The position numbers were made by a program, and so were the translations under genes. Under the pieces are notes generated by a model that saw only the letters and a list, made by a program, of their open reading frames with translations, ran no database searches and was not told where the DNA came from. DNA of 20,000 nucleotides from an uncultured virus (IMG/VR IMGVR_UViG_3300011242_000004) (Duplodnaviria; Heunggongvirae; Uroviricota; Caudoviricetes): IMG/VR virus record IMGVR_UViG_3300011242_000004. One strand, written 5' to 3'. Below are positions 5,180-18,904 of the stretch, in pieces (position 1 is the stretch's first letter; every line of letters begins with the position of its first letter).

Positions 5180-7975
5180 ATGACAAACGCTAAAAACAAC
5201 AACAACGGAAAACAAAACAAAAAGGGGATGAAACCTATGAAAGCATTAACAATCACTGAACTCGTCAAACAACGTAAAACTATCGTCAAGCACCAAGGTC
5301 CAAAGAAACCATCGTTCAACTTGTCAGCAACAAAATCAGTTTTCGGATTCACACACCCGATGACTGGCGCATTAACAATCTTGAATGACAAAACGCTTCA
5401 GCACTTGTTTGTCAGCGATGACATGAACAATACAAAGTTTAATCCTGCTGTCCGTTTGTTCATGGTGACGGAAGGTTCTACAAAAGTAGAAGATTTCATG
5501 GTCAATGAGAAAACATTGGTTCAGCGTAACTCTGAATCGATGCTTGTACGGGATGCCGCTAAAGTCACAACAGAATTCGACATTATCAAGAAAGACCCGC
5601 TCAACCGTAAACAGATGTTGACGGAGAAGCTTGAGGCCTTTGACAATACACGTCAGCTCAACCTTAAGGTTGCAGATGTCGTTGTCAAACTCAAGAAGTT
5701 ATTTGAATCAAAAGAAGTCAAAGCACGTTTTGGTAATATCGATGCAAAAGACATCAATCATTTCATCAAAGAAGTACTCTTGAATGGTGTCGTGAATCTT
5801 GACTTCGTGAATGGCGATTACGATGTCAAAGTATTCACATTGAATTCAGCGGCACCATCGCAAACTCGTAAGGGTGAAGCGGCTTTCTGGCAGTATGCGG
5901 AACAACGTGGTCTTGCCAACCTCAAGGATTTAATCTTTGATGACGCAAAACGTTCAATCGCTGTTTACGGTCGTTTTGTTTCAACCTACCGTATGAACGA
6001 ATACGGTAAACTCAAATTGAAGCGCGGTAAACGCATCTTCAAGATGGACAAAGAGCCAAAACGTTTGGACATGCCCGCATCAGGTTCGCGGGATTCACAG
6101 GCTTTCAAGTTCCTGTTCGGTAAAATGGTCATCGTCGACCGTTTCCTTTACACGGATGACGAGAAAGAAGCTGGTACTAATATCAAAGTCGTTAAAGAAG
6201 CGATTGTATTAGAATCTTCTTCTTTGATGATGGGTGGCGTCAAACGTCGGGTTCTTATCATTCAAGACCCGATTCGTGAAGTTGAAGCAACGGCGAAAGT
6301 CGTTGAGAAGTACAACACGGAGTCAGGTAAGCCTGAAATCGTGGAAGGGCTTTACAAGTTCCCTAAGAACTTGGTCGATGGTGGTATCTTGGTTTCTGAG
6401 GAAGTGACAGAGTTTATGGTCGCTGAAGGAAACTTGAAGCACAAAGGGCAGTCATTCCAAGGTCGTGGTGTAGCGGGTGTTAAACCATTCGCTTATGGCA
6501 CACCAATGCTTAAAGAGATGACTGGTGTAGACATGGTCTTCATGTCAGGTGCATTAAAACTCGATGTTATCCCATCATTGCTTGATGGTCGCTTCGAGTT
6601 TGCAGTCGTTCAAGGGTCACGTCTTGAGTTTGCTGAAGACATGGCACCGGTAGCAACACAGGCTTTACTTGCGGCTGGTACACCGCAAGAGAACCTTGAA
6701 TTGCTTCACATGATTGCGGCAGGTCGTATCGATGCTTCTATGTACTCAGCGTCAAAAGCTCTCAAGATTCTTGGCATCACAGAGAACTTTGACGAGGAGA
6801 CAATGAAAGTTGTCGAACAAGATGAAGAGTTCGTCGAAGAGTTAGATGGCGAAACAGGTGTGAAAGCGATTCTTCGTAAAGCACCTCACGCTATCAAAGA
6901 TGGTCTTCTCAAAGACCGTCTTATCAACATCATGGCAAAAGCCCTTGAGAAAATCAAGTTGGGCAATGTCCTTGTTGATGACGCTAAAATGCGTCACATG
7001 GGCTTTGACATCTTTATGGTTGTCAAAGCTATCGAATCATTATTTGTTCAACGCAATAAAGGCGTTGAAGTGCCACAGATGGAATGGGTGAACTCTATCC
7101 CAGCTGGTGGTGCAGTTGTTGTTGACGCTTACGGTCGTCTTCGTGCAGGATACTTCCTTGCGATTCGTTACCCAGCATTGAAGAACGAAGAAGTACGCAA
7201 AGTACTAGCGGCTGTTGAGTTTGGTTCAGAAGAAGCACGTCTTTACTACGAACGTGCGGCACAAATGGGCTTCTTCCAAGGCCTTGTGTTGTTTAACTCT
7301 GTTGACATGACGACAGAGGCAATGAGTGGTGCCGATTTTGATGGCGACACTTGCTTGGTTATCTTCAATGCTTTAATGGTTGAACCGTTTGTAAACAAAA
7401 CACCACTTCTCGATTTCTTTATCACTGAGACTGGTGCGCTCGAAGGTGGATGCCCATGGTCTGCACCGGAGGAAGCTGTTGATTTTAAAGCTCACATCAC
7501 AGCACCTGAGGGTCTTGAATTCACGCAAGTGATGGAAAACAACTCTCGTACGTGGGCACTTGAGTTCGACGAAGAAGACGTCAAAAACCGTCCAGCAGAC
7601 GTTTACTATGTCTTCAACCGTGCAGGAGCATTGCACATCGCTGAGACAGCGAAGATTTCTTCAATCGGAACATGGACAAACCGTCTTATGAACGTTGAAG
7701 ATATCCAACTCGAAATCATCGGTGAAATCGGACTTGCACGTCAGCTTCAAGACCGTGCGAAATTCGTTTCTCTTTCGAACGAGTTGGCGTTCTACGATGA
7801 TTTAGCAATGTGGTTAACATGTATCGTTCGTTGGGCAATCGACGAAGCGAAACATGGTGGAGCGTTCAACGGACCACTTGCTCATATCGTCAACATCTTC
7901 GAAGATGCAACATCTCCAACGAAGATGCGTGAAGACCTTGAGAAACATGTCTTCAAAATGGGTCGTATGTTCTAA
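5180..7975 (+). CDS. YonO-like / eukaryotic-RdRP-related two-barrel RNA polymerase, catalytic polypeptide (931 aa)
   Basis: Motifs in the order expected for the cellular RdRP/YonO family: DGGILVS (aa ~400), QGRGVAGVKP (~427), RYP (~663), catalytic SGADFDGD (DFDGD at nt 7334-7348, aa ~719), AIDEAKHG (~886). AAAGGGGT RBS. Confidence 0.88.
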   Translation: MTNAKNNNNGKQNKKGMKPMKALTITELVKQRKTIVKHQGPKKPSFNLSATKSVFGFTHPMTGALTILNDKTLQHLFVSDDMNNTKFNPAVRLFMVTEGSTKVEDFMVNEKTLVQRNSESMLVRDAAKVTTEFDIIKKDPLNRKQMLTEKLEAFDNTRQLNLKVADVVVKLKKLFESKEVKARFGNIDAKDINHFIKEVLLNGVVNLDFVNGDYDVKVFTLNSAAPSQTRKGEAAFWQYAEQRGLANLKDLIFDDAKRSIAVYGRFVSTYRMNEYGKLKLKRGKRIFKMDKEPKRLDMPASGSRDSQAFKFLFGKMVIVDRFLYTDDEKEAGTNIKVVKEAIVLESSSLMMGGVKRRVLIIQDPIREVEATAKVVEKYNTESGKPEIVEGLYKFPKNLVDGGILVSEEVTEFMVAEGNLKHKGQSFQGRGVAGVKPFAYGTPMLKEMTGVDMVFMSGALKLDVIPSLLDGRFEFAVVQGSRLEFAEDMAPVATQALLAAGTPQENLELLHMIAAGRIDASMYSASKALKILGITENFDEETMKVVEQDEEFVEELDGETGVKAILRKAPHAIKDGLLKDRLINIMAKALEKIKLGNVLVDDAKMRHMGFDIFMVVKAIESLFVQRNKGVEVPQMEWVNSIPAGGAVVVDAYGRLRAGYFLAIRYPALKNEEVRKVLAAVEFGSEEARLYYERAAQMGFFQGLVLFNSVDMTTEAMSGADFDGDTCLVIFNALMVEPFVNKTPLLDFFITETGALEGGCPWSAPEEAVDFKAHITAPEGLEFTQVMENNSRTWALEFDEEDVKNRPADVYYVFNRAGALHIAETAKISSIGTWTNRLMNVEDIQLEIIGEIGLARQLQDRAKFVSLSNELAFYDDLAMWLTCIVRWAIDEAKHGGAFNGPLAHIVNIFEDATSPTKMREDLEKHVFKMGRMF

Positions 7976-10077: not shown

Positions 10078-10106
10078 AAGGCCCTCTTCGGAGGGTCTTT
10101 TGTTTT
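10078..10106 (+). terminator. Intrinsic terminator
   Basis: AAGGCCCTC-TTCG-GAGGGTCTT followed by TTGTTTT. Confidence 0.8.
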
Positions 10107-10149
10107 GTTGTCTGTCACTCAATCCACATACAAAAAGGAGATTATTAAA

Positions 10150-11295
10150 ATGAAAATCCAAAACAAAGTAGCTCGTTATATCAACAACGTCAATGCAACT
10201 AACACTTCAGTCCAAATCAACAAAATGGTGAAGGCCATTGCATTGGCAGAGCGTGAGTTGGAACAAGCACGTCAAATGTTTGCCGATTTCACGGCACCAA
10301 CTCCACCGGCTCCAAAGAAATCCATTGTTCATTCTTCTAAAGGAACAATGACAACACAGTCTGAAGTTCATGCGCTTCTCATGGACACAGATAAAACAGT
10401 TGTAGCCGTTAAAGAAGCAGTCAAAGAAGAACCTGTGTACAAAGGTTTGGATTTGACACCGGCTCCAGCTACTCCTGAACCAACGGAGTACAAAGGCTTA
10501 GATTTATCCGCTCCAACTCCTGAGCCTGAGTATAAAGGACTTGATTTAACACCGGCTCCTAAACCAGCACCATTGGCGAAGGAAGTCCGGGAGAACATGG
10601 CAAAACCAGCACCAAAACCTGTACAACAGCCAGTCAATTCGAAGGCTGGTTTCTTGTCAGGCCCTGCTGAGTCTTCCAACGTGTTGAACAGTGCTATGCC
10701 AAGTCATAAGCACGACACGCTTAAATACGTCGAGAAGCTGAAGAAGTTTATCTTCTCTGGCATCATGAAACTTGCAGAAGCAGGGATTCGTGAGATTCGT
10801 GTCGCTGAGTTCTATGGCGTCGAATTGTTGACAGCGCTCGTCTGGCCTAGCGTGCTTGCGAAGTGTCCAGACATGGAGCTCATTCTCTATACAAATGAGA
10901 ATAAGAGCTTCAAGCAATACAAGACGGAAGAGTACGAGGCGACGTTCAAGATTCATTCGCCATACCGTCTGCAACAAGACTTGCGTCGACTGGCTAATAA
11001 AGTCGTTAAAGTCGAAGGCAATGCCTTTGCAGTACGCCGTGCTGTAGCAAAAGATACAGCCGGTTATGTGCGTATCTCTCCATTTGGTTTGGAGGATATC
11101 ACGACATCGTTATTCAGCAACAAGACGCTACGGGTGAACATTTGCCCATGGACGCTTGCTGTTGAAGTCGGTGGTGATTTACCTGCCCTCTCTCTTGCGG
11201 GAGATGGTGGGGATTACCGTCCACGCCAAATGGTAGCGGACGAAAAGTTGTTAGCGGCGGACACGTCAGACTATAAGGGCCTGACTCTTTCATAA
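10150..11295 (+). CDS. Hypothetical protein (381 aa) with Pro-rich linker and repeated YKGLDL motifs
   Basis: AAAGGAG RBS before ATG 10150; YKGLDL three times plus terminal YKGLTLS. Confidence 0.85.
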   Translation: MKIQNKVARYINNVNATNTSVQINKMVKAIALAERELEQARQMFADFTAPTPPAPKKSIVHSSKGTMTTQSEVHALLMDTDKTVVAVKEAVKEEPVYKGLDLTPAPATPEPTEYKGLDLSAPTPEPEYKGLDLTPAPKPAPLAKEVRENMAKPAPKPVQQPVNSKAGFLSGPAESSNVLNSAMPSHKHDTLKYVEKLKKFIFSGIMKLAEAGIREIRVAEFYGVELLTALVWPSVLAKCPDMELILYTNENKSFKQYKTEEYEATFKIHSPYRLQQDLRRLANKVVKVEGNAFAVRRAVAKDTAGYVRISPFGLEDITTSLFSNKTLRVNICPWTLAVEVGGDLPALSLAGDGGDYRPRQMVADEKLLAADTSDYKGLTLS

Positions 11296-11358
11296 GAGCC
11301 GGGCTTTTGCTTAACGTTGGCTATCAGGCCTTCGGCTAGGGGTTTTAACCCCTTACAA

Positions 11359-11380
11359 CCGGAGGCTTCCAGCCTTCTCT
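11359..11380 (+). promoter_or_regulatory. Degenerate copy of the hairpin motif, embedded in a longer stem-loop (11319-11374)
   Basis: CCGGAGGCTTCCAGCCTTCTCT; lacks the TGATT element. Confidence 0.4.
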
Positions 11381-11409
11381 TGCGGTATCACTACTAGAAA
11401 GGAGTGACG

Positions 11410-11646
11410 ATGATGTCACGAGAATTTATTGTTTCTTTGTTACGCTTAGTATTACCGTACCCATTACACTGGTACGAAAGTAAGTCCTTGCACCAATTGA
11501 ACGGAATCTACACGGAATACCGGGGAGCCATTTCCCGGAAACGTGTACAGTTGGCATTTGAAGCCGATGACCGCCGTTTAAAAGAAAAACTGAAGAAAAC
11601 ACCATTCGTTCCTCCGAAAGAGGACAATGGGTTGCCCTTCTTTTAG
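11410..11646 (+). CDS. Small hypothetical protein (78 aa) ending EDNGLPFF
   Basis: AAAGGAG RBS, ATG 11410. Confidence 0.8.
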   Translation: MMSREFIVSLLRLVLPYPLHWYESKSLHQLNGIYTEYRGAISRKRVQLAFEADDRRLKEKLKKTPFVPPKEDNGLPFF

Positions 11647-11666
11647 GGCAAGTTCAAAAACAAAGG

Positions 11667-11696
11667 GCGGAGGACTCCGTCCTTCTTTTGTTGATT
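11667..11696 (+). promoter_or_regulatory. Repeated hairpin motif copy 1 (putative phage RNAP promoter/terminator)
   Basis: GCGGAGGACTCCGTCCTTCTTTTGTTGATT; TGATT starts 25 nt after the first G. Confidence 0.7.
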
Positions 11697-12060
11697 CAAT
11701 GAGGGGAACTTGATTCCAACCAACAGCTCAACTGGTCCTTCGGGATAGAGCCTTCACACCTCATTGAATTGCACCAACATGCAGGTGAAGGTTCTCGCTT
11801 TCCCCCTACTGTCCAGTGGGGGGTTGCGTCATGAGAGCGGTGAACACTTCCGTCTTTGGACATATCCAGCGCTACCCTGATGGGTTCTGGAGAAAAGACG
11901 GTCGTATTACTTCCTACTTGGTAGGAGCACGACATCAGGTCTCCTTTTTGTCCTACCGGATAGGGGATTCGTATTCTATGCGTCGCACAGGGGTGTGCAA
12001 AGTCATAGATAGTAGGTGTTATGTAGCGCGGAGGCTTACCCAACCTCCGGCACATAGCAA
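11694..12060 (+). ncRNA. Putative ~370-nt structured non-coding RNA, family not recognised
   Basis: Perfect 11-bp stem 11694-11704/11759-11769 is crossed by an 11-bp stem 11747-11757/11785-11795 (pseudoknot). Also a cUUCGg hairpin and at least six further consecutive stems. No RBS-supported ORF. Confidence 0.7.
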
Positions 12061-12075
12061 ATACATAGTTAGAAG

Positions 12076-12106
12076 GCGGAGGCCTCCGGGCCTTCTTCTC
12101 TTGATT
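12076..12106 (+). promoter_or_regulatory. Repeated hairpin motif copy 2
   Basis: GCGGAGGCCTCCGGGCCTTCTTCTCTTGATT (spacing 26). Confidence 0.7.
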
Positions 12107-12132
12107 CTATTACATGCAAAGGGGAGATTGAC

Positions 12133-12411
12133 ATGAAAGAAATGAAACTCACGCAATTGGACGAAAGTAAAGCACGTAAGCTTTTACCTGAAGAAATAGC
12201 GGAACTCGATAACGCTGTTGAGAATCATCAAACGATATCGGAACTCAAAGTCATGCATTCGAATGCTGGGTATTATCTAGGGCATACGATTGACCAAGAA
12301 ATTGATGGTCAAGTATTTGAAATGCCTTGGGACCGCGTGACCGACTACTATAAAACGAAAGAAAAAGCGGAGCAAGCGCTTCGGTTCGAACAACTGCATC
12401 AACAAGACTAA
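12133..12411 (+). CDS. Hypothetical phage protein (92 aa)
   Basis: AAAGGGGAG RBS; motif SNAGYYLG...PWDRVTDYY. Confidence 0.85.
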   Translation: MKEMKLTQLDESKARKLLPEEIAELDNAVENHQTISELKVMHSNAGYYLGHTIDQEIDGQVFEMPWDRVTDYYKTKEKAEQALRFEQLHQQD

Positions 12412-12413
12412 AA

Positions 12414-12444
12414 GCGGAGGGCTCCGGCCCTTCTTTCTTTGATT
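12414..12444 (+). promoter_or_regulatory. Repeated hairpin motif copy 3
   Basis: GCGGAGGGCTCCGGCCCTTCTTTCTTTGATT (spacing 26). Confidence 0.7.
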
Positions 12445-12473
12445 ACAACTTTATATGAAAAGGAGCGATTCAC

Positions 12474-12803
12474 ATGTATGAACAAATTGAACGGGAAGTC
12501 GAAATGGACAAATTCTTCCGTCGGGGGAAATACTCAACGAACGTTAACCCGGCGACTGGTGAATTCATCGAGCAACCAGTACTTTCAGCGGATAAGCCTC
12601 ACCGCTGTCATGTCATCAAACGGCTATGCCCGAAAATGACGATGAACACGGATATGGCTACCATCACGCAAGATGTGAAGTTGGCTTATCAAGGAAAACA
12701 GTTTTGGCATACGATTGAACTTGAGACATGTAAACGGGAAGATGTTGCTCGTGTGTATCAACAACATGCTCAACGTTGGCGCCTAGAGGAGGAAAGCAAA
12801 TGA
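12474..12803 (+). CDS. Hypothetical protein (109 aa)
   Basis: AAAGGAG RBS. Confidence 0.8.
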   Translation: MYEQIEREVEMDKFFRRGKYSTNVNPATGEFIEQPVLSADKPHRCHVIKRLCPKMTMNTDMATITQDVKLAYQGKQFWHTIELETCKREDVARVYQQHAQRWRLEEESK

Positions 12804-12979
12804 ACGACCAATTGCTTTTCTTCATGATGGCATCCATGTATCTCGTCTTTTGTGCGTACGTTGTTGGTATCGCGTATATCGCGCGGTACCTTCTGCTTCG
12901 TAATCATTTCAAGTTAGCCTTCTCTAGTTTCTTCGTCGGTGTCGGCGGTCTTATCTTCGTTTTAAATACATTATTCTAA
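12800..12979 (+). CDS. Small membrane protein (59 aa, two hydrophobic segments)
   Basis: GGAGG RBS; ATGA overlap with the previous stop. Confidence 0.75.
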   Translation: MNDQLLFFMMASMYLVFCAYVVGIAYIARYLLLRNHFKLAFSSFFVGVGGLIFVLNTLF

Positions 12980-12990
12980 GGGAGCGATTC

Positions 12991-13179
12991 ATGATGAAAA
13001 AGGTTGGTAAAGTATTACTTAAAGGTGCGATTCTCTATACGTTTGCGATGTATGTCGCCGCCATTAACATCGTCGCTGAAAAACGGAAGACCGACGCTCA
13101 GATTGATAAGCTCACGAAACAATACGAAGCAAGCCAAGCTGGTTTTAAAAAGACACTTAAACAATTGGGGGCTATCTAA
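12991..13179 (+). CDS. Small membrane-anchored protein (62 aa)
   Basis: AAGGGAG RBS; N-terminal hydrophobic helix. Confidence 0.75.
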   Translation: MMKKVGKVLLKGAILYTFAMYVAAINIVAEKRKTDAQIDKLTKQYEASQAGFKKTLKQLGAI

Positions 13180-13454
13180 TGAAATACTTTGATATGCATT
13201 ATAGTATTATTGTAGACCGTCCGCTCGTTGCTGTTTTGCTTAAAAATGGTCAGCGCGGGGTATTCGTTAATAACAATATCTCGTGCATTAACGACTTCGA
13301 TTTCGAGAAGCGTGTCCTCAGCCGTCGTTCGATTGCCGGGAACGTCGATACACGCTACAAGTCTCTTGATGAGGCCGTCGCGGAATATAATGAATCATGT
13401 ATTGAAAGCAAACGTATCATTTCATTCGATATCCTAGAGGAGGCAACAGCATGA
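13179..13454 (+). CDS. Hypothetical protein (91 aa)
   Basis: TAATG coupling with the previous gene; GGGGG RBS. Confidence 0.75.
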   Translation: MKYFDMHYSIIVDRPLVAVLLKNGQRGVFVNNNISCINDFDFEKRVLSRRSIAGNVDTRYKSLDEAVAEYNESCIESKRIISFDILEEATA

Positions 13455-13738
13455 ACACTATCATCCAACCTACTACTACGATTAAACCTCTCCGTCATGA
13501 AGATACGACGGAGACACGCAACTATATCAACATCTATAAAGATGGTGTCCTCTATGAGGGCATCACCGCGATTCGTCAAACGTCTTTTGATAATAATGGA
13601 CATCGTCTTTATGAAGTCTCAGTTGACCCGGAGAAAAAGGTCTTTTACAAACTTCCGTATAGCTTCGATATTCCCTATGAGTTCGAAGGCAAGGACTTAA
13701 ACATGATGATTACGCACGCACGGTTTAAACAACACTGA
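13451..13738 (+). CDS. Hypothetical protein (95 aa)
   Basis: GAGGAGG RBS; ATGA overlap. Confidence 0.8.
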   Translation: MNTIIQPTTTIKPLRHEDTTETRNYINIYKDGVLYEGITAIRQTSFDNNGHRLYEVSVDPEKKVFYKLPYSFDIPYEFEGKDLNMMITHARFKQH

Positions 13739-13762
13739 GGGCCTTCGGGCTCTCTTTTTTTT
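13737..13762 (+). terminator. Intrinsic terminator
   Basis: GAGGGCC-TTCG-GGCTCTC followed by T8. Confidence 0.8.
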
Positions 13763-13813
13763 ATGGACACACATCTCCAGTGGGAACACACATTCAGAAG
13801 GGAGACATATCCA

Positions 13814-14014
13814 ATGTCTACAGTCAGTCTTATTGCCAACCTCATTATTTTTCTCTCCACCCTCTACACCTTATTCTTTTATATTCGTGCCCGTCGGGTT
13901 GTATCAACACATGGAGAAACAGATGCGCGCGTTCGCACTCTCCGTGAAACCAAGAACTACTTCATGATTTGTATCTCTTATTCTGTATTAGTCATTGTGC
14001 TTCAGTTCTTTTAA
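13814..14014 (+). CDS. Small membrane protein (66 aa)
   Basis: AAGGGAG RBS before ATG 13814; two hydrophobic segments. Confidence 0.7.
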   Translation: MSTVSLIANLIIFLSTLYTLFFYIRARRVVSTHGETDARVRTLRETKNYFMICISYSVLVIVLQFF

Positions 14015-14024
14015 AAGATAAAAG

Positions 14025-14054
14025 GCGGAGGCCTCCGGCCCTCTTTTCATGATT
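14025..14054 (+). promoter_or_regulatory. Repeated hairpin motif copy 4
   Basis: GCGGAGGCCTCCGGCCCTCTTTTCATGATT (spacing 25). Confidence 0.7.
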
Positions 14055-14098
14055 CTCAGCGTCTGTAGCCATTCACCTTATAGAAAGGAAGATTATCC

Positions 14099-14404
14099 AT
14101 GGAAGAACAAATCTACGCCTATCAGCACATCCTTAGACACACATCCAAGTTCGATGAAATCACTGTCGGGTTAGCCTCTGTCGTCAACGGACTCGTCAAT
14201 GACCTCATTGCCAAGAATCAGGACTTCATTCGTATGAACAGTGAACAGCGGTTGTATTCAGCTATTGCCAAAGCTCGTATCTTAGAAATGCAATTGGCAT
14301 ACACGATTGATTACAGTCATACGCCGTTGCTTCCAGAGATTCTTCCGCTCGACCCTATCAAGGTCAATGCGCTACAGGAAGAATACGAAGCCCAGTTCCA
14401 ATAA
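14099..14404 (+). CDS. Hypothetical protein (101 aa)
   Basis: AAAGGAAG RBS. Confidence 0.8.
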   Translation: MEEQIYAYQHILRHTSKFDEITVGLASVVNGLVNDLIAKNQDFIRMNSEQRLYSAIAKARILEMQLAYTIDYSHTPLLPEILPLDPIKVNALQEEYEAQFQ

Positions 14405-14445
14405 GAGCCTTCCGGCTCTTACATACCTTAAAGGAGGAGATACTA

Positions 14446-14844
14446 ATGAATGCTTCAAACCGTCTGTTTCATTTAGCACAAGATGCTCTCACCAAACAAA
14501 AAGTCAGCGAGAGAGCCTACTCGATTGCACAAGACTTCATCAAACAAGCAGAGTGGTATGCAAGTAGAGGAGATGACAGTACCGCCTTTATTTGTGACGA
14601 AGAACAGAACTTCAGTGGCTCTCTAACTGAAATTAAAGAGTTGTTGTCTGAAGTCCGAAAAGTTCTTTCCAACGAAGGATTCAAGACGACTTCCTACATG
14701 CACCCTTCTATTATGCAACCGGTCTTGCGAATACATTGGGCGCAACCGAAAGAAAACAGTACATTCGTTATACATGCGGAAACTAAAGATGGAGTAGAAG
14801 CCATCCACCATATGCTTAAGTTTTTACCTGAACTAATCAACTAA
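14446..14844 (+). CDS. Hypothetical protein (132 aa), paralog of the next gene
   Basis: AGGAGG RBS; shares LAQ(D/E)A and L(R/H)I(H/N)WA.P motifs with 14861..15220. Confidence 0.85.
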   Translation: MNASNRLFHLAQDALTKQKVSERAYSIAQDFIKQAEWYASRGDDSTAFICDEEQNFSGSLTEIKELLSEVRKVLSNEGFKTTSYMHPSIMQPVLRIHWAQPKENSTFVIHAETKDGVEAIHHMLKFLPELIN

Positions 14845-14860
14845 ACAGGAGGAGATACTA

Positions 14861-15220
14861 ATGAAAAACGCACAGATGATGTACAAACTCGCGCAGGAAG
14901 CGAAAGCAGAAGAAAAACGGGCAGAGGTCATCAACGCCATCACATTCAAAATCGGTGATATCATCCAAAGCCACGCGAAGAAAGGATTCACGGACATCCG
15001 CATCTCCACAGACAACATGGGCTTTAACCACGACTTCATGTTGAACATGAACAACGTCCACGAACTCATGGCTCATATCAGACAGTTCGGATACGAGGTC
15101 CGTCTTCTGTTGATGGCAGACACCAACGAAATGATTCTTCACATCAACTGGGCTCCGAACCCATTCGAAGAAATGCGTAGAAACTTCGGCAATCCACTTG
15201 ACCTAGACCCTCATTATTAA
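14861..15220 (+). CDS. Hypothetical protein (119 aa), paralog of the previous gene
   Basis: AGGAGG RBS; identical 19-nt initiation region to the previous gene. Confidence 0.85.
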   Translation: MKNAQMMYKLAQEAKAEEKRAEVINAITFKIGDIIQSHAKKGFTDIRISTDNMGFNHDFMLNMNNVHELMAHIRQFGYEVRLLLMADTNEMILHINWAPNPFEEMRRNFGNPLDLDPHY

Positions 15221-15229
15221 AACCGAAGA

Positions 15230-15259
15230 GCGGAGGGCTCCGCCCCTCTTCTCTTGATT
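15230..15259 (+). promoter_or_regulatory. Repeated hairpin motif copy 5
   Basis: GCGGAGGGCTCCGCCCCTCTTCTCTTGATT (spacing 25). Confidence 0.7.
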
Positions 15260-15277
15260 ATGAAAGGAGTGATAGCT

Positions 15278-15778
15278 TTGAAAATTGGTGTCATCGGCAT
15301 GCGTATGCGGAAACACCATCCGTACTATAACCGCAACAGTCCGAAGCTTGATGAAATTTGGAAGTGGCAGGAACAGCACTTGAAAGTCTTAGCGAAAGAA
15401 GGGCATACCTTCTTAATCGGGTGTGCCGACCATTGGGACGCCCGTGCCATGAAATGGTTGTACTACAACGGTCACGCCGACCAGATTCAATTGATTCTTC
15501 CGTTCCCGGGCTTTGGCTCGAAACAAGGGAAGGATTGGCGCACCGTCCGGGAACAACTCGAACACAGAGGACAAGCCACGTATGTCCATCAACAAAGTAC
15601 GTCCGATGAATATCAAATGCTCAACCAACGCAATCGTACCCTTATCAAGGAAAGCGATTGGGTGCTATGGCTATGGGACGGCACACAGACCGACGCCTAT
15701 AGTCATTTAATCTTGAACAAGAAACCGGGCTACTTCTTCCCATGGAAGGAATACGCCCAAAGCCATCAAACGGTTTAA
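15278..15778 (+). CDS. SLOG-superfamily protein (YspA/DUF1273-like)
   Basis: AAAGGAG RBS, TTG start. KIGVIGMR, GCADHWDARA, LILPFPG and RNRTLIKESDWVLWLWDG follow the DUF1273/YspA motif order. Confidence 0.7.
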   Translation: MKIGVIGMRMRKHHPYYNRNSPKLDEIWKWQEQHLKVLAKEGHTFLIGCADHWDARAMKWLYYNGHADQIQLILPFPGFGSKQGKDWRTVREQLEHRGQATYVHQQSTSDEYQMLNQRNRTLIKESDWVLWLWDGTQTDAYSHLILNKKPGYFFPWKEYAQSHQTV

Positions 15779-15828
15779 GCTTACTCATCGTCCATAACTC
15801 AATCATATACTAAAAGGAGACTACTACT

Positions 15829-16197
15829 ATGACTACATCTATTAAACACTTTAACTTCGAGGATACTATGACAATTGAAGGGCAAGGCGTCGTCATCGGC
15901 GCAACCCCTGCTGTCCTCTCTAAAATCAAGGAGTTCGGTCTAAGCGTCTATGAAATCGTAGCGGACTTACAACTCACTGCACCGGAAGCGTTCGACCTTC
16001 CGAACATGACGAACTATGCGGTTATGAATCCGTTCATGGATACGTGCATCCTCGCTAAAGTCTATAGCGACGGCGACAACATCTGCATTGACGCCTTCGA
16101 TGTACGGAACCATATCCCATACGGAAACGTTCGCAATGACGGCACGCAAGGGTATCGCTTAGGCGCTATCCAGAAAGTCTTCACTGTGGTGCAATGA
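15829..16197 (+). CDS. Hypothetical protein (122 aa)
   Basis: AAAGGAG RBS. Confidence 0.85.
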   Translation: MTTSIKHFNFEDTMTIEGQGVVIGATPAVLSKIKEFGLSVYEIVADLQLTAPEAFDLPNMTNYAVMNPFMDTCILAKVYSDGDNICIDAFDVRNHIPYGNVRNDGTQGYRLGAIQKVFTVVQ

Positions 16198-16301
16198 TGA
16201 AACGTAGACATCCGCATTACCACGATATCATGGAAGATATCAGTATCGCCGTCGGCTTATTGTCGATGGCATACTTTACCTTATCGTTCGCATTCCATTA
16301 A
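16194..16301 (+). CDS. Putative 35-aa hydrophobic peptide (not in the ORF track)
   Basis: ATGA overlap with the previous stop; MMKRRHPHYHDIMEDISIAVGLLSMAYFTLSFAFH; fills the gap up to the next motif. Confidence 0.5.
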   Translation: MMKRRHPHYHDIMEDISIAVGLLSMAYFTLSFAFH

Positions 16302-16311
16302 AAACCAAAAA

Positions 16312-16336
16312 GCGGAGGGCTCCGCCCCTCTTCTTA
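16312..16336 (+). promoter_or_regulatory. Repeated hairpin motif copy 6 (no TGATT)
   Basis: GCGGAGGGCTCCGCCCCTCTTCTTA. Confidence 0.6.
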
Positions 16337-16373
16337 TAGGGCTTACTACTTGAATTCAGAGAGGAAGATATCC

Positions 16374-16934
16374 ATGCAATTAAACACATTTGTCCAAGAA
16401 TACTATCAGAACCCAAAAGAGAAGCCACTATTGAAACGTGTCGGTGGCATGCTCCCGGTATCAAAGAACGTCTTCAATGACGAAATCATGCATCAGAAAG
16501 TCGATACCGCCGTCAACGCCATCCACATCCAACAGATTGCTTCCCACTTAGGGATTGAACTGGAAGATGTTCAGCATGCCGCTGTCGAAGTATGTGGCAT
16601 GAAACAAGAAGCGCGTCTGTTCGAGAAGAAAGTCCAAGACTTTGACGCTCGTGAGAATGCGTATATGAACGGTTCTGTCTTAGAGAAGGCACGCCGTTGG
16701 ATTGGTTCTGACCCAGTCGACCCACGCTCTACGGTCAAAGGCGAACAGCAACCTATCATCAATATCCAATTGCCGGAGGAACTCGTCGGCGGAGGCAATC
16801 TCCAAGAACGTGTTCAACGCAATGAACAGGCTATGCAAGAACTCTCGACACAGATGGCTTCTTTACTATCTGCTCTTGAGTCTCAGTTCCAAGCGAAACA
16901 AGCAGAAGCGGAAACTTCTGAAATCAAAGCGTAA
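16374..16934 (+). CDS. Hypothetical protein (186 aa) with C-terminal coiled coil
   Basis: AGAGGAAG RBS before ATG 16374. Confidence 0.85.
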   Translation: MQLNTFVQEYYQNPKEKPLLKRVGGMLPVSKNVFNDEIMHQKVDTAVNAIHIQQIASHLGIELEDVQHAAVEVCGMKQEARLFEKKVQDFDARENAYMNGSVLEKARRWIGSDPVDPRSTVKGEQQPIINIQLPEELVGGGNLQERVQRNEQAMQELSTQMASLLSALESQFQAKQAEAETSEIKA

Positions 16935-16986
16935 GGTTTGCGGGGAGTCTAAGCCCGCTCCCCTTACATATAAGGAGGCCATCCCC

Positions 16987-17172
16987 ATGGCATCAGATGA
17001 ACTAGAACTCGTCAAATCATTCTTGTATCTTATCGGCTTATGTATCATCGCCTTAGGCGCATTGTTCTTGAAAATTGCTCACATCGATAGACGCGTAGTC
17101 GACCACTCTCTGCTATGGGGTGGCGTCATGGCCATCGGTATCATCTTTATTTACAAAGTCAGTCAAATGTAG
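16987..17172 (+). CDS. Small membrane protein (61 aa)
   Basis: AAGGAGG RBS, ATG 16987; two TM-like segments. Confidence 0.8.
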   Translation: MASDELELVKSFLYLIGLCIIALGALFLKIAHIDRRVVDHSLLWGGVMAIGIIFIYKVSQM

Positions 17173-17183
17173 GAGGAAACCTC

Positions 17184-17399
17184 ATGTCCATCTTAGCTGT
17201 CATACTTGTTACATTCTATTTCATCATTCTTTTGAACATGTGGCGCCTGACCTTCAGAGCCTTCAGTAAATGGTGGCGCGTCCGTCACTCGAAAGATAAA
17301 GTCAAACGTTCTTATGCCTTCGATAACTTCTTTCAAGGCATTTGCTTAACAATCTTTGCGACGTTCATGTTTAGCGTCATTGTCTACGAAAACCTTTAA
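17184..17399 (+). CDS. Small membrane protein (71 aa)
   Basis: AGGAGG RBS, ATG 17184; two TM-like segments. Confidence 0.8.
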   Translation: MSILAVILVTFYFIILLNMWRLTFRAFSKWWRVRHSKDKVKRSYAFDNFFQGICLTIFATFMFSVIVYENL

Positions 17400-17401
17400 A
17401 A

Positions 17402-17431
17402 GCGGAGGCGTCCCGCCTTCTTTTCTTGATT
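17402..17431 (+). promoter_or_regulatory. Repeated hairpin motif copy 7
   Basis: GCGGAGGCGTCCCGCCTTCTTTTCTTGATT (spacing 25). Confidence 0.7.
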
Positions 17432-17452
17432 ACTAACAAGGAGGAATGGATT

Positions 17453-17791
17453 ATGCATAAAACACTGAAAGAAGAACATCGCCGGGTAAAGACTCTCCTT
17501 TGGAACAACATCGTGAGTCGTATCAACACCGCTTCAGCCGAAGACTTCACGAAACGTAACACCATCATGGAAGTCAAAGAGTTCTCACTCATGAATGACA
17601 TCAACAACGAATTGCTTGCGGAAGGGAAACCTTCTTTAGGCATGGGCTATGGTGGCACCATGGAAATCAAATGCAACCTTCGTATCCTACGGAATGCCGT
17701 CCCTGATGCCTATCCGATGATGAAGGAGCATACGTACAAAGAACTGTTAGAAGCGCTTCGCCAGCAGGAAGAGAGCATGCAAGAGTTTTAA
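17453..17791 (+). CDS. Hypothetical protein (112 aa)
   Basis: AAGGAGG RBS, ATG 17453. Confidence 0.8.
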   Translation: MHKTLKEEHRRVKTLLWNNIVSRINTASAEDFTKRNTIMEVKEFSLMNDINNELLAEGKPSLGMGYGGTMEIKCNLRILRNAVPDAYPMMKEHTYKELLEALRQQEESMQEF

Positions 17792-17800
17792 ACCTTAAAG

Positions 17801-17830
17801 GCGGAGGCTTCCAGCCTTCTTTTAATGATT
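17801..17830 (+). promoter_or_regulatory. Repeated hairpin motif copy 8
   Basis: GCGGAGGCTTCCAGCCTTCTTTTAATGATT (spacing 25). Confidence 0.7.
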
Positions 17831-17833
17831 AAA

Positions 17834-17895
17834 TGCCGAAACGTCGAGAGACGTCATCTACGGGTAACCCTCCGTAGGTCTGATGATGGCAGGGT
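17834..17895 (+). ncRNA. Type II hammerhead ribozyme
   Basis: Stem II TGCC(17834-37)/GGCA(17888-91); GAAA 17838-41; stem III CGTC-GAGA-GACG; GTC cleavage triplet ending 17855; stem I ATCTACGG/CCGTAGGT; core CTGATGA 17880-86 plus one extra U; loop I ACCC can pair with downstream GGGT (17892-95). Confidence 0.88.
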
Positions 17896-17914
17896 AAGGT
17901 CAAAAACCTTAAAA

Positions 17915-17944
17915 GCGGAGGCTTCCAGCCTTCTTCTGTTGATT
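17915..17944 (+). promoter_or_regulatory. Repeated hairpin motif copy 9
   Basis: GCGGAGGCTTCCAGCCTTCTTCTGTTGATT (spacing 25). Confidence 0.7.
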
Positions 17945-18027
17945 CAGAGGACACTCTATCCTTTCTAGGCATAGGTGAGTCCAATGGGTACAAAATTGTC
18001 CACGCGACGTTAAAAGGAGGAATTATC

Positions 18028-18633
18028 ATGCAACAACAACAAGTCCAAGGTCTCGTACTCGATGACGCATCACTCGAACAATCTCGTGGTCCCCGCTGGT
18101 ACCTCGAAGACCAAAATTCGACGGCGGAAGCTTCGAACGCTAAATTGGGTATCGAGAACATCGTCCTGACGAAAGCGACGACGCAAGCTCAAATTGACGC
18201 GGGTGCCATCGGTCAAGTCGCTCTTCACACGACAATCGGTTCATTCTACATGACTGCTTTCCGTGGAAAGAAAGACCCGGGTTCTGTCCGTCTTGCTTTG
18301 CCTACTCGTCAGTACATCGACAAAGACGGCGTTAAGCAAAATCAGGAACAGTACTCGTTGCGTTCGGCTGTTCGTGCCCAAATCCTGAAATTCGTTCACT
18401 CGAAATGTAAGGAAGCGCAAGTCGCACAACAAGCCCCTGCTGGTCACGCTCAAGCAGAAGCGAATCCGGCTCTTGCCGCACTTGCTGGTCTTGACGCGGA
18501 AACAATCGCCAAACTCGTTGCTCTCTTGGGAGCTTCGGGTGGTGCGGGTGCTCAAGCTCAAGCTCAACCACAAGCTCAGGCTCAAGCTGACGTTTCTTCT
18601 GTTCCACCAATCATCACTGAAGGCGCATTCTAA
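18028..18633 (+). CDS. Putative nucleic-acid-binding protein (SpoVG-like core, Ala/Gln-rich tail)
   Basis: AAAGGAGG RBS. RLALPTRQYIDKDG...RAQILKFV resembles the SpoVG pattern (vAMPSrk..dG...R..I). Low-complexity tail. Function is tentative. Confidence 0.5.
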   Translation: MQQQQVQGLVLDDASLEQSRGPRWYLEDQNSTAEASNAKLGIENIVLTKATTQAQIDAGAIGQVALHTTIGSFYMTAFRGKKDPGSVRLALPTRQYIDKDGVKQNQEQYSLRSAVRAQILKFVHSKCKEAQVAQQAPAGHAQAEANPALAALAGLDAETIAKLVALLGASGGAGAQAQAQPQAQAQADVSSVPPIITEGAF

Positions 18634-18642
18634 GACCAAAGG

Positions 18643-18672
18643 GCGGAGGGCTCCGCCCTTCTCTTTTTGATT
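18643..18672 (+). promoter_or_regulatory. Repeated hairpin motif copy 10
   Basis: GCGGAGGGCTCCGCCCTTCTCTTTTTGATT (spacing 25). Confidence 0.7.
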
Positions 18673-18690
18673 ATTTATCTCAGCTTCCTC

Positions 18691-18763
18691 AACGGAGCGG
18701 GCGTTGTCTACGTGCTAGGAGTCCTTCCCCTACTCCTAATGCGTAGACAGCGTCTGCTCTGTT
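18691..18763 (+). ncRNA. Putative long-hairpin small RNA
   Basis: 32-bp stem with 25 Watson-Crick pairs, 6 G-U pairs and 1 mismatch; 9-nt loop CCTTCCCCT. Confidence 0.65.
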
Positions 18764-18787
18764 TCTATCTTTTAATATTACATACCT

Positions 18788-18855
18788 AGACACATCCGCG
18801 ATGGCTTCCCTGTGGAGCTTTTTCTAAAAAAGCAGAGACACATCCGAGATGGCTT
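18788..18855 (+). repeat. 20-nt direct repeat AGACACATCCG(C/A)GATGGCTT, two copies 48 bp apart
   Basis: Copies at 18788-18807 and 18836-18855, one mismatch. Confidence 0.8.
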
Positions 18856-18904
18856 TTCTCTAGGAATTTTTTTTAAATCGTAGCCGTTAGAAAGGAGAAC
18901 TTGC

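What the first reader, a model, noticed from the sequence alone, without database searches (positions are those of the whole stretch)
11694..12060. Unrecognised ~370-nt highly structured RNA with a 5' pseudoknot
It fills the whole gap between two motif copies. ATTCAATGAGG/CCTCATTGAAT (11 bp) encloses three short hairpins including GTCC-TTCG-GGAT and is crossed by AGAGCCTTCAC/GTGAAGGTTCT. Further stems follow: CGCTTTC/GAGAGCG with CCCCTACT/AGTGGGGG, CCGTCTTT/AAAGACGG with TCCAG/CTGGA, GTCGT/ACGAC with TTCCTAC/GTAGGAG, TCTATG/CATAGA with GCACA/TGTGC, and TGTTATGT/ACATAGCA with CGGAGG/CCTCCG. Deviations are mostly G-U on the + strand. I could not see tmRNA, RNase P, SRP or group I/II intron signatures. 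The last hairpin contains GCGGAGG, the core of the repeated motif, hinting at promoter mimicry (speculative).
Basis: partly seen in the sequence, partly recalled or inferred. Interest (0 to 1): 0.8.

Follow-up and report, generated by a model that had tools for sequence, protein, structure and literature searches.

The report
Unclassified structured RNA in jumbo phage
A stretch of about 370-400 bases in an uncultured large phage codes for no conserved protein, folds into a multi-hairpin RNA and is kept far better than its neighbouring genes in a distant relative, so it is probably a new phage RNA gene of unknown function.

Summary
All the listed stems are in the window at 11694-12060, between two copies of a strand-specific hairpin+TTGATT boundary motif, and no Rfam family, tRNA or tmRNA matches. 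The window is part of an uncultured jumbo-type phage that encodes a YonO/RdRP-like single-chain RNA polymerase.

One relative with DNA in hand (L012) has the element at the same syntenic place. Its polymerase is only 44% identical, yet the element is 78% identical overall, with 3 differences in the first ~107 nt. Six of seven indels are not multiples of three and both long ORFs break, but the five-domain fold is kept. The consensus fold scores z -5.2 on the plus strand and -2.4 on the minus strand.

Two more variants are known only as gene-caller ORFs. One carries a local frameshift over what look like unchanged nucleotides. A closer relative (L011) has protein cassettes at that site instead.

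Best reading: a stand-alone, accessory, trans-acting structured RNA gene in an early-gene cassette array.

Limits:
- The 5' pseudoknot is possible but untested, because both helices are invariant.
- One listed stem is wrong in register.
- Promoter mimicry is unsupported.
- Covariation from two sequences is suggestive only.
- Expression is untested.

The parts
11654..11696 (+). Upstream cassette-boundary motif: A-tract, hairpin 11663-11684, T-rich run, TTGATT box (11691-11696) that runs into the RNA's first helix
   Evidence: Repeat families D1/D2/D5. Pattern match with 0 mismatches. Terminator-like by scan. The box and the junction are conserved in L012.
11692..12066 (+). Candidate structured RNA body (about 375 nt; about 410 nt if it ends at the next hairpin)
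   Evidence: Homolog L012:16646-17034, 78% identical. Consensus fold -93.75 kcal/mol, z -5.19 against column shuffles. No Rfam hit.
11692..11771 (+). 5' domain closed by helix P1 (11694-11704 with 11759-11769, extendable to 13 bp). It encloses hairpin GGAA/TTCC (11705-08/11714-17) and the UUCG-loop hairpin (11735-38/11743-46).
   Evidence: Three differences from L012 in about 107 nt. The helices are invariant, so covariation does not test them.
11747..11795 (+). Candidate pseudoknot helix 11747-57 with 11785-95, crossing the P1 3' strand; it encloses the small TGCA/TGCA hairpin 11770-73/11780-83
   Evidence: 11 bp with 1 G-U. Invariant in L012. Its 3' strand overlaps helix 11791-97/11832-38. 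The nested alternative costs only 1.7 kcal/mol more.
11791..11838 (+). Long hairpin P3: base GTTCTCG/TGAGAGC, inner stem 11802-10/11815-23, loop GTCC
   Evidence: In L012 it is a 13+8-bp hairpin, with 1 compensatory and 3 one-sided changes.
11850..11901 (+). Hairpin domain D3: CCGTCTT/AAGACGG enclosing TCCAG/CTGGA and a small apical stem
   Evidence: Kept in L012 with 1 compensatory and 3 one-sided changes.
11901..11933 (+). Variable hairpin GTCGT/ACGAC with TTCCTAC/GTAGGAG
   Evidence: An 18-nt deletion removes it in L012. It is retained in the two ORF-only variants, judged from the peptide SYQVG.
11940..11967 (+). Hairpin D4a (TCTCCT/AGGGGA with inner GTCC/GGAT)
   Evidence: L012 has a 9-bp hairpin at the same place with a different sequence.
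11975..12009 (+). Hairpin D4b (TCTATG/CATAGA with GCACA/TGTGC)
   Evidence: L012 has an 11+4-bp hairpin at the same place with a largely different sequence. MAFFT cannot align the two, but the domain folds agree.
12012..12064 (+). Terminal hairpin D5 (TGTTATGT/ACATAGCA, CGGAGG/CCTCCG, 9-nt loop)
   Evidence: 19 pairs, 2 compensatory and 1 one-sided change, none broken in L012.
12067..12107 (+). Downstream cassette-boundary motif: terminator-like hairpin 12078-12095, T-rich run, TTGATT. It is the likely 3' end of the RNA and the start of the next cassette.
5180..7975 (+). Context: 931-aa YonO/RdRP-like single-chain RNA polymerase, 3.7 kb upstream
   Evidence: 12 of 17 family members match PF05183 at E<=0.01 (best 1.1e-6); the window's own copy does not. 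Invariant GADFDGD at 717-723.

Best explanation
11692 to about 12100 (+ strand) is a stand-alone gene for a non-coding, multi-domain structured RNA of about 375-410 nt. It sits in one cassette of an array of short, motif-bounded early-type cassettes, in an uncultured jumbo-type phage that has its own YonO/RdRP-like RNA polymerase.

Shown:
- It is conserved in place and in fold in a distant relative.
- It is not conserved as a protein.
- It folds best on the + strand.
- It matches no catalogued RNA family.

Inferred:
- It is transcribed like its protein-coding neighbours, from the hairpin/T-run/TTGATT boundary motif to the next hairpin.
- The near-invariant 5' domain of about 107 nt (P1, the UUCG hairpin, and the helix that can cross P1) is the working core.
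- The 3' hairpins, which change sequence but keep their shape, act as scaffold.

Most likely mode of action (inference, about 0.3 given that it is an RNA gene): a trans-acting RNA that binds and diverts a protein of the host or the phage, that is, a decoy or regulator of the host-takeover or counter-defence type. The reason is that it behaves as an optional cassette among small early genes and is not tied to any one downstream gene.
For: Conservation:
- L012 keeps the order polymerase, large ORF, large ORF, about 80-aa ORF, then the element.
- Window-to-L012 protein identities are 44%, 25%, 32% and 59%, yet the element is 77.5% identical over 414 nt, with 3 differences in the first ~107 nt.
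- The best-kept gene shared with L012 (13179-13454, 98% aa) still has 23 of 276 nt changed, 20 of them at third codon positions. The 5' domain is therefore kept beyond synonymous drift.

Not coding:
- There are 7 indels against L012 (1, 1, 1, 1, 18, 2, 4 nt), and 6 are not multiples of three.
- The window's minus-strand frame has stop codons in L012.
- The + ORF splits into two tblastn pieces.
- The database ORF P0019 differs from the window over 7 residues, five of which (ALMTQ) are the window's own +1-frame translation.
- Neither ORF hits Pfam or PHROGs.

Structure:
- The consensus fold is -93.75 kcal/mol. Column shuffles average -64.7 (sd 5.6) and 0 of 200 reach it. The minus strand gives -74.7, z -2.43.
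- L012 alone folds to -141 kcal/mol on + (z -6.2) and -119 on - (z -3.5).
- Of 92 consensus pairs, 7 change on both sides and 10 on one side (as counted; RNAalifold's own table gives 11); none is broken. Slid controls give 0-2 double changes.
- All five domains fold alike when each sequence is folded alone.

Independent cassette:
- The downstream genes differ between the two phages (E 3.0).
- The same strand-specific motif bounds the protein cassettes (9 matches on +, 0 on -).

Other points:
- G+C is raised over the element.
- No known family matches.
Against: - Only two nucleotide sequences are in hand. The consensus structure was derived from them, so '0 broken' holds by construction.
- The double-change count (7) is reached by 16 of 200 column shuffles and by 6 of 500 partner shuffles. 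This is suggestive, not proof.
- P1 and the crossing helix do not vary at all, so nothing tests them.
- The window's minus strand folds as well as its plus strand when taken alone.
- A 78-aa minus-strand ORF is open in 3 of the 4 known variants. In the window an AAAGGAG lies 5 nt before its ATG at 11935 (read), and sigma-70-like hexamers lie at 12001-11973.
- The element is missing from L011, a closer relative, both at the syntenic site and in the whole 53.7-kb record. It is therefore dispensable.
- The genomes are mosaic, so part of the high identity could come from recent exchange.
- The proposed decoy or regulator role rests on context only.
Confidence: 0.6

Rival explanations
1. It is a cis-acting RNA element that acts on the polymerase transcribing it. 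One version is a processive antitermination signal of the put or EAR type, letting transcription read through the terminator-like motif copies downstream. Another is a long attenuator or riboswitch-like leader.
For: - It lies near the head of the motif array: 2 motif copies upstream and 9 from its own 3' end onward.
- The 5' domain has two near-isoenergetic alternative pairings of GGTTCT, with 11747-52 or with 11833-38, as switches do.
- In SPbeta the YonO-dependent late transcript starts at an unannotated non-coding RNA (passages of PMC5467207).
Against: - L011 has the same motif-bounded cassettes downstream but lacks the element.
- A full boundary motif separates it from the next gene.
- The next genes are unrelated in the two phages.
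- No known riboswitch or leader family matches.
Confidence: 0.15
2. It is a small protein gene on the minus strand (78 aa from the ATG at 11935 to the stop at 11696), and the apparent RNA structure is incidental.
For: - The ORF is open in the window and is called as a protein in two other assemblies (P0018 94%, P0019 74%).
- An SD-like AAAGGAG lies 5 nt before the ATG (read).
- Promoter-like hexamers lie at 12001-11973 on the minus strand.
Against: - In L012 the same nucleotides are kept, but the frame carries stop codons, and the ATG-initiated frame ends in another frame.
- P0019 has a local frameshift over what appear to be unchanged nucleotides.
- Replacements are radical (L to E, C to V, S to D).
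- The 5' domain is kept more tightly than synonymous sites of the best-kept neighbouring gene.
- No family hit; the only other hit in 1.84 billion representatives is an unrelated repeat protein.
- It would be the only minus-strand gene in an 15-kb + strand block.
- Promoter-like sites are no more frequent than in shuffles (8 found against 12.9 expected).
Confidence: 0.05
3. It is a DNA-level element, such as a single-strand initiation or origin-type structure, a recombination site or a packaging site. Its inverted repeats would act in DNA rather than in a transcript.
For: - It has long perfect inverted repeats: 11 bp Watson-Crick-only, seen in 8 of 500 shuffles.
- The near-invariance of about 107 nt includes loops and linkers.
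- Both strands of the window fold well.
Against: - The one-sided changes keep G-U pairs only on the + strand, and the consensus fold is 19 kcal/mol better on +.
- It occupies a cassette bounded exactly like the transcribed protein cassettes.
- An iteron-like repeat array that looks more like an origin lies elsewhere, at 4279-4420.
- It is absent from L011.
Confidence: 0.05
4. It is a self-processing RNA (a new self-cleaving or self-ligating ribozyme) whose invariant pseudoknotted 5' domain is a catalytic core. It would trim the transcript at the cassette boundary.
For: - The 5' domain is invariant even in its loops and has crossing helices, as in small pseudoknotted ribozymes.
- It lies directly at a transcript boundary.
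Against: - No ribozyme family matches in either phage, even at E<=10.
- It is larger than the known small self-cleavers.
- No cleavage-site signature could be tested.
Confidence: 0.05
5. It is non-functional filler: the remnant of a decayed cassette, carried along by mosaic exchange, whose stability is incidental.
For: - It is dispensable in L011.
- The genomes are mosaic.
- Covariation is not significant with two sequences.
Against: - There are 3 differences in about 107 nt, against 23 in 276 nt in the best-kept gene.
- The 3' half has diverged to about 70% identity and yet every domain keeps its hairpin.
- Consensus-fold z is -5.19.
- G+C is raised.
Confidence: 0.07

Closest known systems
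Large orphan structured RNAs of phages and prophages (ROOL, GOLLD; also OLE and raiA in bacteria)
   Same: Several-hundred-nt, multi-domain, protein-free transcripts of unknown biochemical role, found by conservation and structure. Some are carried by phages. (Title and abstract of PMC12286853 seen in the listing; the rest recalled.)
   Different: No Rfam match to any of them in the window or in L012, even at E<=10. It is shorter (about 0.4 kb) and known from only 4 variants. Oligomer formation is untested.
The unannotated non-coding RNA at the YonO-dependent start site of prophage SPbeta
   Same: A non-coding transcript downstream of a YonO-type polymerase gene in a Firmicutes phage (passages of PMC5467207). 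SPBc2 has a 1.68-kb stretch without annotated genes between yonN and yonK.
   Different: No sequence or model similarity: nhmmer found nothing and CM R1 found nothing in L025. The SPbeta stretch holds a DUF3800-VIII RNA hit (47.5 bits) that the window lacks.
6S RNA (a polymerase-binding promoter mimic)
   Different: 6S is a single long rod with a central bubble, about 190 nt (recalled). Here there are five separate domains. No 6S family hit. Binding is untested.
HK022 put RNA and the EAR element (cis-acting processive antitermination RNAs)
   Same: A structured RNA placed ahead of a series of terminator-like hairpins.
   Different: Those are about 70-120 nt and act only in cis (recalled). The element is missing from L011, which has the same hairpin array.
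PeSLs: composite promoter-terminator motifs that bound shuffled early-gene cassettes in T4-like phages. This is the parallel for the flanking motif, not for the RNA.
   Same: A repeated stem-loop plus start signal flanks small variable genes, and cassettes are present or absent between relatives. (Titles and abstract starts of PMC2839356 and PMC4122927 seen in the listing.) Here the motif gives 9 + strand matches and 0 on the minus strand, and cassette content differs between the window, L011 and L012.
   Different: Different sequence, and no sigma-70-type -10 follows the TTGATT box. The polymerase that uses it, if any, is unknown.
Phage-specific 21-bp promoter candidates of Bacillus thuringiensis phage 0305phi8-36
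   Same: A jumbo Bacillus phage with a PF05183-like polymerase, 14 copies of a phage-specific motif in non-coding spacers, and small monocistronic genes near the polymerase gene (passages of PMC2147016).
   Different: The window's polymerase gives no tblastn match at E<=1e-5 in the phage collection, and only 22-26% identity to Bacillus, Paenibacillus and Cytobacillus megaplasmids. The motifs were not compared.

Membership tests
Any Rfam 15 family | Covariance-model score at or above the family's gathering score | tested here: not met
   0 matches at gathering score in the 20-kb window. At E<=10 there are only chance-level hits, and they differ between the window and L012.
tmRNA / tRNA-like RNA | tRNA-like acceptor/T-arm domain and a tag reading frame, as detected by ARAGORN or Rfam | tested here: not met
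   ARAGORN finds 0 genes. cyano_tmRNA scores 10.4 bits against a gathering score of 70, and the hit lies outside the element.
RNase P RNA, SRP RNA, 6S RNA, group I and group II introns | A match to the family model; for introns, also interruption of a host gene | tested here: not met
   None is listed even at E<=10. The flanks are a complete 80-aa gene with its hairpins and a boundary motif, not split exons.
Protein-coding gene (either long ORF) | Reading frame kept in relatives, with substitutions biased to synonymous sites | tested here: not met
   6 of 7 indels against L012 are not multiples of three. Stops lie in the equivalent frame of L012, and P0019 carries a frameshifted stretch. No Pfam or PHROG hit.
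Conserved structured ncRNA (generic criteria) | Homologs keep the fold through compensatory changes, statistically supported | tested here: inconclusive
   7 double and 10 one-sided changes in 92 pairs (count), with 0-2 double changes in slid controls. But n=2, the structure was derived from the same sequences, and 16 of 200 column shuffles reach 7.
Conserved structured ncRNA (generic criteria) | Consensus fold more stable than shuffled alignments, and strand-asymmetric | tested here: met
   z -5.19 on + (0 of 200 shuffles reach it) against -2.43 on -. L012 alone scores z -6.2 on + and -3.5 on -.
Conserved structured ncRNA (generic criteria) | A discrete transcript exists | not testable with these tools
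H-type pseudoknot in the 5' domain | Both crossing helices form together, supported by covariation or probing | tested here: inconclusive
   Both helices exist and are unlikely by chance together (1 of 300 shuffles). They are invariant in L012, and the crossing helix competes with helix 11791-97/11832-38.
Cis-regulatory leader of the downstream gene | Constant association with one downstream gene family | tested here: not met
   The downstream ORFs of the window and L012 are unrelated (E 3.0; no tblastn hit).
YonO/RdRP-like two-barrel RNA polymerase (the 931-aa neighbour, context only) | Match to PF05183 and an invariant acidic metal-binding motif | tested here: met
   12 of 17 aligned family members hit PF05183 at E<=0.01 (best 1.1e-6), though the window's own copy does not. 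GADFDGD is invariant in 17 of 17. No solved structure was found by profile (best E 0.016, unrelated).

The most novel reading that the evidence does not exclude
The RNA is a dedicated partner of the phage's RdRP-like polymerase. It could be a 6S-like regulator that occupies the enzyme. More radically, it could be a structured template or primer from which this homologue of eukaryotic RNA-dependent RNA polymerases makes RNA from RNA. That would be RNA-templated synthesis in a DNA phage. The shared CGGAGG of the last hairpin and the boundary motif would then be a common recognition element.
Probability: 0.05. Interest if true: 0.9.

Novelty: new variant of a known kind. Interest (0 to 1): 0.55.

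Why it matters
Phage-borne structured RNAs of several hundred nucleotides are rare, and their jobs are almost all unknown. This one sits in a lineage of uncultured jumbo-type phages that transcribe with a YonO/RdRP-like single-chain polymerase, an enzyme class whose promoters and regulators are still undefined.

The RNA is a compact object of about 0.4 kb, with a 5' core of about 107 nt that is nearly invariant. That makes it directly testable: transcribe it, probe it, and pull down its partners. Its bounding motif offers candidate start and stop signals for this polymerase class.

If it proves to be a decoy or a polymerase regulator, it would add an RNA player to phage host takeover in Firmicutes-type phages. 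If not, it remains a well-delimited orphan RNA family with too few members for firm statistics.

Tried and rejected
Searches for further copies, all negative:
- blastn of 11600-12140 against 50,697 GenBank phage records: no match.
- blastn of the element against 72,556 plasmids: no match.
- Four exact 19-21-nt blocks of the 5' half against IMG/VR: only L012's contig, plus one unrelated 20-mer at the start of a protein gene (L027).
- Degenerate motif scan of IMG/VR: 0 matches.
- Back-translated scan with the pseudo-ORF alignment: only L012's contig.
- CM R1 of the first 155 nt over 251 kb of held loci, including SPbeta and distant polymerase relatives: only the two training sequences; the next hit has E 0.25.
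- Search of the whole records of L011, L012 and L013: only L012.

Homology to SPbeta's non-coding stretch was rejected: nhmmer gave no hit and R1 gave none.

The Rfam weak hit SpF03 (27.5 bits against 50) was rejected. It covers the terminator-like hairpins at 11606-11702, not the element.

Neighbour function:
- Pfam and PHROGs gave nothing for the 656-aa, 396-aa and 80-aa ORFs.
- The ESM Atlas gave no usable hit for the 656-aa ORF, and only a weak SLOG/YpsA-like structural lead for residues ~192-374 of the 396-aa ORF.
- The single-protein locus search with the 396-aa ORF found nothing.

Other attempts:
- Two further long-range pairings were noted: CCTGATG/CATCAGG (invariant) and CCTAC/GTAGG (2 compensatory changes). 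Three candidate 5-bp helices with two double changes arise among all combinations, so this is at chance level.
- Own-genome search: no genome is held.
- Earlier-scan look-ups by place and by sequence: nothing.
- Literature searches for a described RNA of this kind returned nothing that describes it (terms; only listings and the named passages were read).
Full report
WHAT IS THERE. The window is a gene-dense, phage-like stretch with Firmicutes-style ribosome-binding sites. A leftward block ends near 2935, and everything from 3085 on is on the + strand. Almost nothing matches Pfam or PHROGs. The 931-aa ORF at 5180-7975 has 17 database relatives. Twelve of the 17 aligned family members match PF05183 (RdRP) at E<=0.01, although the window's own copy does not. 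GADFDGD is invariant in all 17. I read it as a YonO/RdRP-like single-chain RNA polymerase. That this motif resembles the metal-binding motif of two-barrel polymerases is recalled, not tested. Relatives sit on contigs of up to 237 kb, and the only hits in named records are 200-260-kb Bacillus, Paenibacillus and Cytobacillus plasmids at 22-26% identity. The element is therefore most likely from a jumbo-type phage of a Bacillota host. No whole genome is held for the window.

THE BOUNDARY MOTIF. Eleven + strand copies of one motif lie between 11346 and 18672. Each has an A-tract, a G+C-rich hairpin containing GCGGAGG, a T/C-rich run and a TTGATT box. A regex for it hits 9 times on + and 0 times on -. 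The hairpins score as terminator-like. The box lies only about 3-25 nt before the ribosome-binding site of the next gene, and no sigma-70-type -10 follows. L011 and L012 have related versions. I read it as a composite stop/start or processing signal that bounds short cassettes. The closest described things are the PeSL promoter-terminator motifs of T4-like phages (titles and abstract starts only) and the 14 phage-specific promoter candidates of phage 0305phi8-36, which also has a PF05183-like polymerase and small monocistronic genes (passages of PMC2147016). Which polymerase uses the motif is unknown.

CHECK OF THE OBSERVATION.
- The finding's stretch fills the cassette between the copies at 11654-11696 and 12067-12107.
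- All 15 listed stems are present, and their only non-Watson-Crick pairs are G-U on the + strand.
- The fold is more stable than shuffles (z -3.9).
- The two 11-bp helices with at most one G-U occur together in 1 of 300 shuffles.
- G+C is raised.
- On the window alone the minus strand folds as well (z -4.05).
- Rfam gives nothing at gathering score and only chance-level hits at E<=10. ARAGORN gives nothing.

RELATIVES. Scans with an alignment of the polymerase family returned three close loci: L001 (74% identical, but the contig ends too early), L011 (62%) and L012 (44%).
- L012 has the element at 16646-17034, at the same place after the polymerase, two large ORFs and the ~80-aa ORF. Identity is 77.5% over 414 nt, and there are only 3 differences in the first ~107 nt. 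The flanking proteins are 25-59% identical.
- The one neighbour that is 98% identical in protein still has 23 of 276 nucleotides changed, 20 at third positions. The 5' domain is therefore kept more tightly than synonymous sites of the best-kept gene.
- L011 has four protein cassettes at the syntenic site instead, and lacks the element in its whole 53.7-kb record.
- No other copy was found in GenBank phages, plasmids or IMG/VR.
- Two further variants exist only as gene-caller ORFs of 78 aa in the protein collection: P0018 (94% identical) and P0019 (74%, on a 78-kb contig). Their DNA could not be fetched.

CODING OR NOT.
- Against L012 there are seven indels (1, 1, 1, 1, 18, 2 and 4 nt), and six of them shift the frame.
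- The frame of the window's 119/78-aa minus ORF carries stops in L012, while the nucleotides of the 5' domain are the same.
- The + ORF 11816-12136 breaks into two pieces.
- P0019 differs from the window over seven consecutive residues, five of which (ALMTQ) are the window's own +1 frame. The likely cause is a pair of compensating indels over unchanged nucleotides, which is how non-coding sequence evolves.
- On the other side, the minus ORF is open in 3 of 4 variants. In the window AAAGGAG lies 5 nt before its ATG (read), and promoter-like hexamers lie upstream. Such hexamers are no more frequent than in shuffles (8 against 12.9).
- I put the coding reading at about 0.05.

STRUCTURE.
- RNAalifold on the two sequences gives 92 pairs in 13 helices. 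Seven pairs change on both sides and 10 on one side (count; RNAalifold's own table gives 11). None is broken.
- Sliding the partners gives 0-2 double changes.
- Because the structure comes from these same two sequences, the fairer test is column shuffling. The consensus energy is -93.75 against a mean of -64.7, z -5.19, with 0 of 200 shuffles as low. The minus strand scores z -2.43. A count of 7 double changes is reached in 16 of 200 shuffles.
- Thermodynamic conservation and strand asymmetry are therefore clear, while covariation alone is only suggestive.
- Folding each sequence domain by domain gives the same five-domain plan: a P1-closed 5' domain with small hairpins; a long hairpin P3 with a GTCC loop; a nested hairpin D3; a variable hairpin that L012 lacks; two hairpins D4a and D4b whose sequences differ almost entirely but whose shapes match; and a terminal hairpin D5 with two compensatory changes.
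- L012 alone folds to -141 kcal/mol on + (z -6.2) against -119 on - (z -3.5).

- P1 (11694-704/11759-69) and the crossing helix (11747-57/11785-95) share no nucleotides, and the loop lengths look compatible with an H-type knot (my reading of the geometry).
- Both are invariant in L012.
- Nested folds containing one or the other differ by only 1.7 kcal/mol.
- GGTTCT of the crossing helix is also the 5' strand of the P3 base helix 11791-97/11832-38, which L012 supports by a G-U to A-U change. The region could be a knot, a switch, or simply P1 plus P3.
- Promoter mimicry has no support. Only CGGAGG is common to the last hairpin and the motif in both phages, and it pairs differently in the two.

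WHAT IT MOST LIKELY IS. It is a stand-alone gene for a structured RNA. It has its own cassette, bounded like the protein cassettes. Different genes follow it in the two phages, which argues against a leader for one gene. It is optional among relatives, as host-takeover and counter-defence cassettes usually are. The nearly invariant 5' domain looks like the working part and the drifting 3' hairpins like scaffold.

My preferred mechanism is inferred from context only: a trans-acting RNA that binds and diverts a host or phage protein. I give it about 0.3, given that the element is an RNA gene. The alternatives are:
- a cis-acting antitermination or attenuator element (0.15), weakened by L011 having the hairpin array without it;
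- a ribozyme (0.05);
- a DNA-level element (0.05);
- the minus-strand protein (0.05);
- junk (0.07).

COMPARISON WITH WHAT IS KNOWN. It is not a member of any Rfam family tested. In kind it resembles the large orphan RNAs of phages and prophages such as ROOL and GOLLD, but it shows no similarity to them. SPbeta, the phage in which YonO was characterised, starts its YonO-dependent late transcript at an unannotated non-coding RNA (passages of PMC5467207), and has a 1.68-kb stretch without annotated genes there. That stretch carries a DUF3800-VIII motif and shows no similarity to this element. Two earlier notes of this scan report structured RNAs or promoter-like boxes near YonO-like polymerases in other uncultured phages. 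They are leads, not evidence. The literature searches I ran returned nothing that describes this RNA. I read only listings and the passages named above.

VERDICT. This is a real and well-delimited candidate for a new structured RNA family in YonO-type jumbo phages. It is supported by conservation above that of the neighbouring proteins, by loss of reading frames, and by a strand-specific conserved fold. It still lacks expression data and a deep alignment. Interest 0.55.

Noticed in passing
window 5180-7975 (+): The 931-aa ORF belongs to a family in which 12 of 17 members hit PF05183 (RdRP), and GADFDGD is invariant. It is a YonO/RdRP-like single-chain RNA polymerase. No solved structure was found by profile search.
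   Followed up: partly
window 11346-18672 (+), 11 copies: A strand-specific boundary motif (A-tract, GCGGAGG hairpin, T-rich run, TTGATT) precedes most small genes. It is a candidate composite terminator plus phage-polymerase start or processing signal. Related versions occur in L011 and L012.
   Followed up: partly
window 4279-4420: There are about six to eight tandem 14-nt units (TATATAGGGG-like), with palindromic variants, in the spacer before the 4469 gene. They look like iterons and may mark an origin or operator array (families D3 and D7). The spacer is partly conserved in L012.
   Followed up: no
window 17831-17901 (+): A cassette of about 70 nt between two motif copies (17788-17830 and 17902-17944) has no ORF and two neat hairpins (ACGTC/GACGT and CTACGG/CCGTAG). 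It may be a second, small RNA gene.
   Followed up: no
window 18673-18904 (+): A 230-nt non-coding stretch after a motif copy holds a 42-nt direct repeat (18788-18829 and 18836-18877, 76% identical) just upstream of the 18905 gene. It may be a pair of regulator binding sites.
   Followed up: no
window 13179-13454 (+) and L012 18632-18907: This 91-aa protein is 98% identical between the window and L012, while other shared proteins are 25-73% identical. 20 of its 23 nucleotide changes are at third codon positions. The cause is either very strong purifying selection or a more recent exchange.
   Followed up: partly
window 15254-15778 (+); 10105-11295 (+); L011 18080-18469: The 174-aa ORF is near the Pfam cut-off for the YpsA SLOG family (26.4 bits against 27.7). 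The C-terminal half of the 396-aa ORF resembles SLOG/YpsA models in the Atlas (TM 0.63 by the hit). L011 has a further small cassette that reads like the same kind of protein; I judged this by eye and did not test it.
   Followed up: no
window 10426-10559 (+): There are three imperfect direct repeats of about 29-38 nt inside the 396-aa ORF, that is, an internal peptide repeat (families D6 and D12).
   Followed up: no
L025 (SPBc2) 19154-20834, minus strand: A 1.68-kb stretch without annotated genes lies between yonN and yonK, downstream of yonO. It contains a DUF3800-VIII RNA match (47.5 bits against a gathering score of 40.2). The YonO paper places the YonO-dependent start and an unannotated ncRNA here.
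   Followed up: partly
L027 1501-1520 (-): An exact 20-nt match to window 11698-11717 lies at the start of an unrelated protein gene (MNEGNLIP...). There is no similarity beyond the 20-mer, so I take it as chance.
   Followed up: yes
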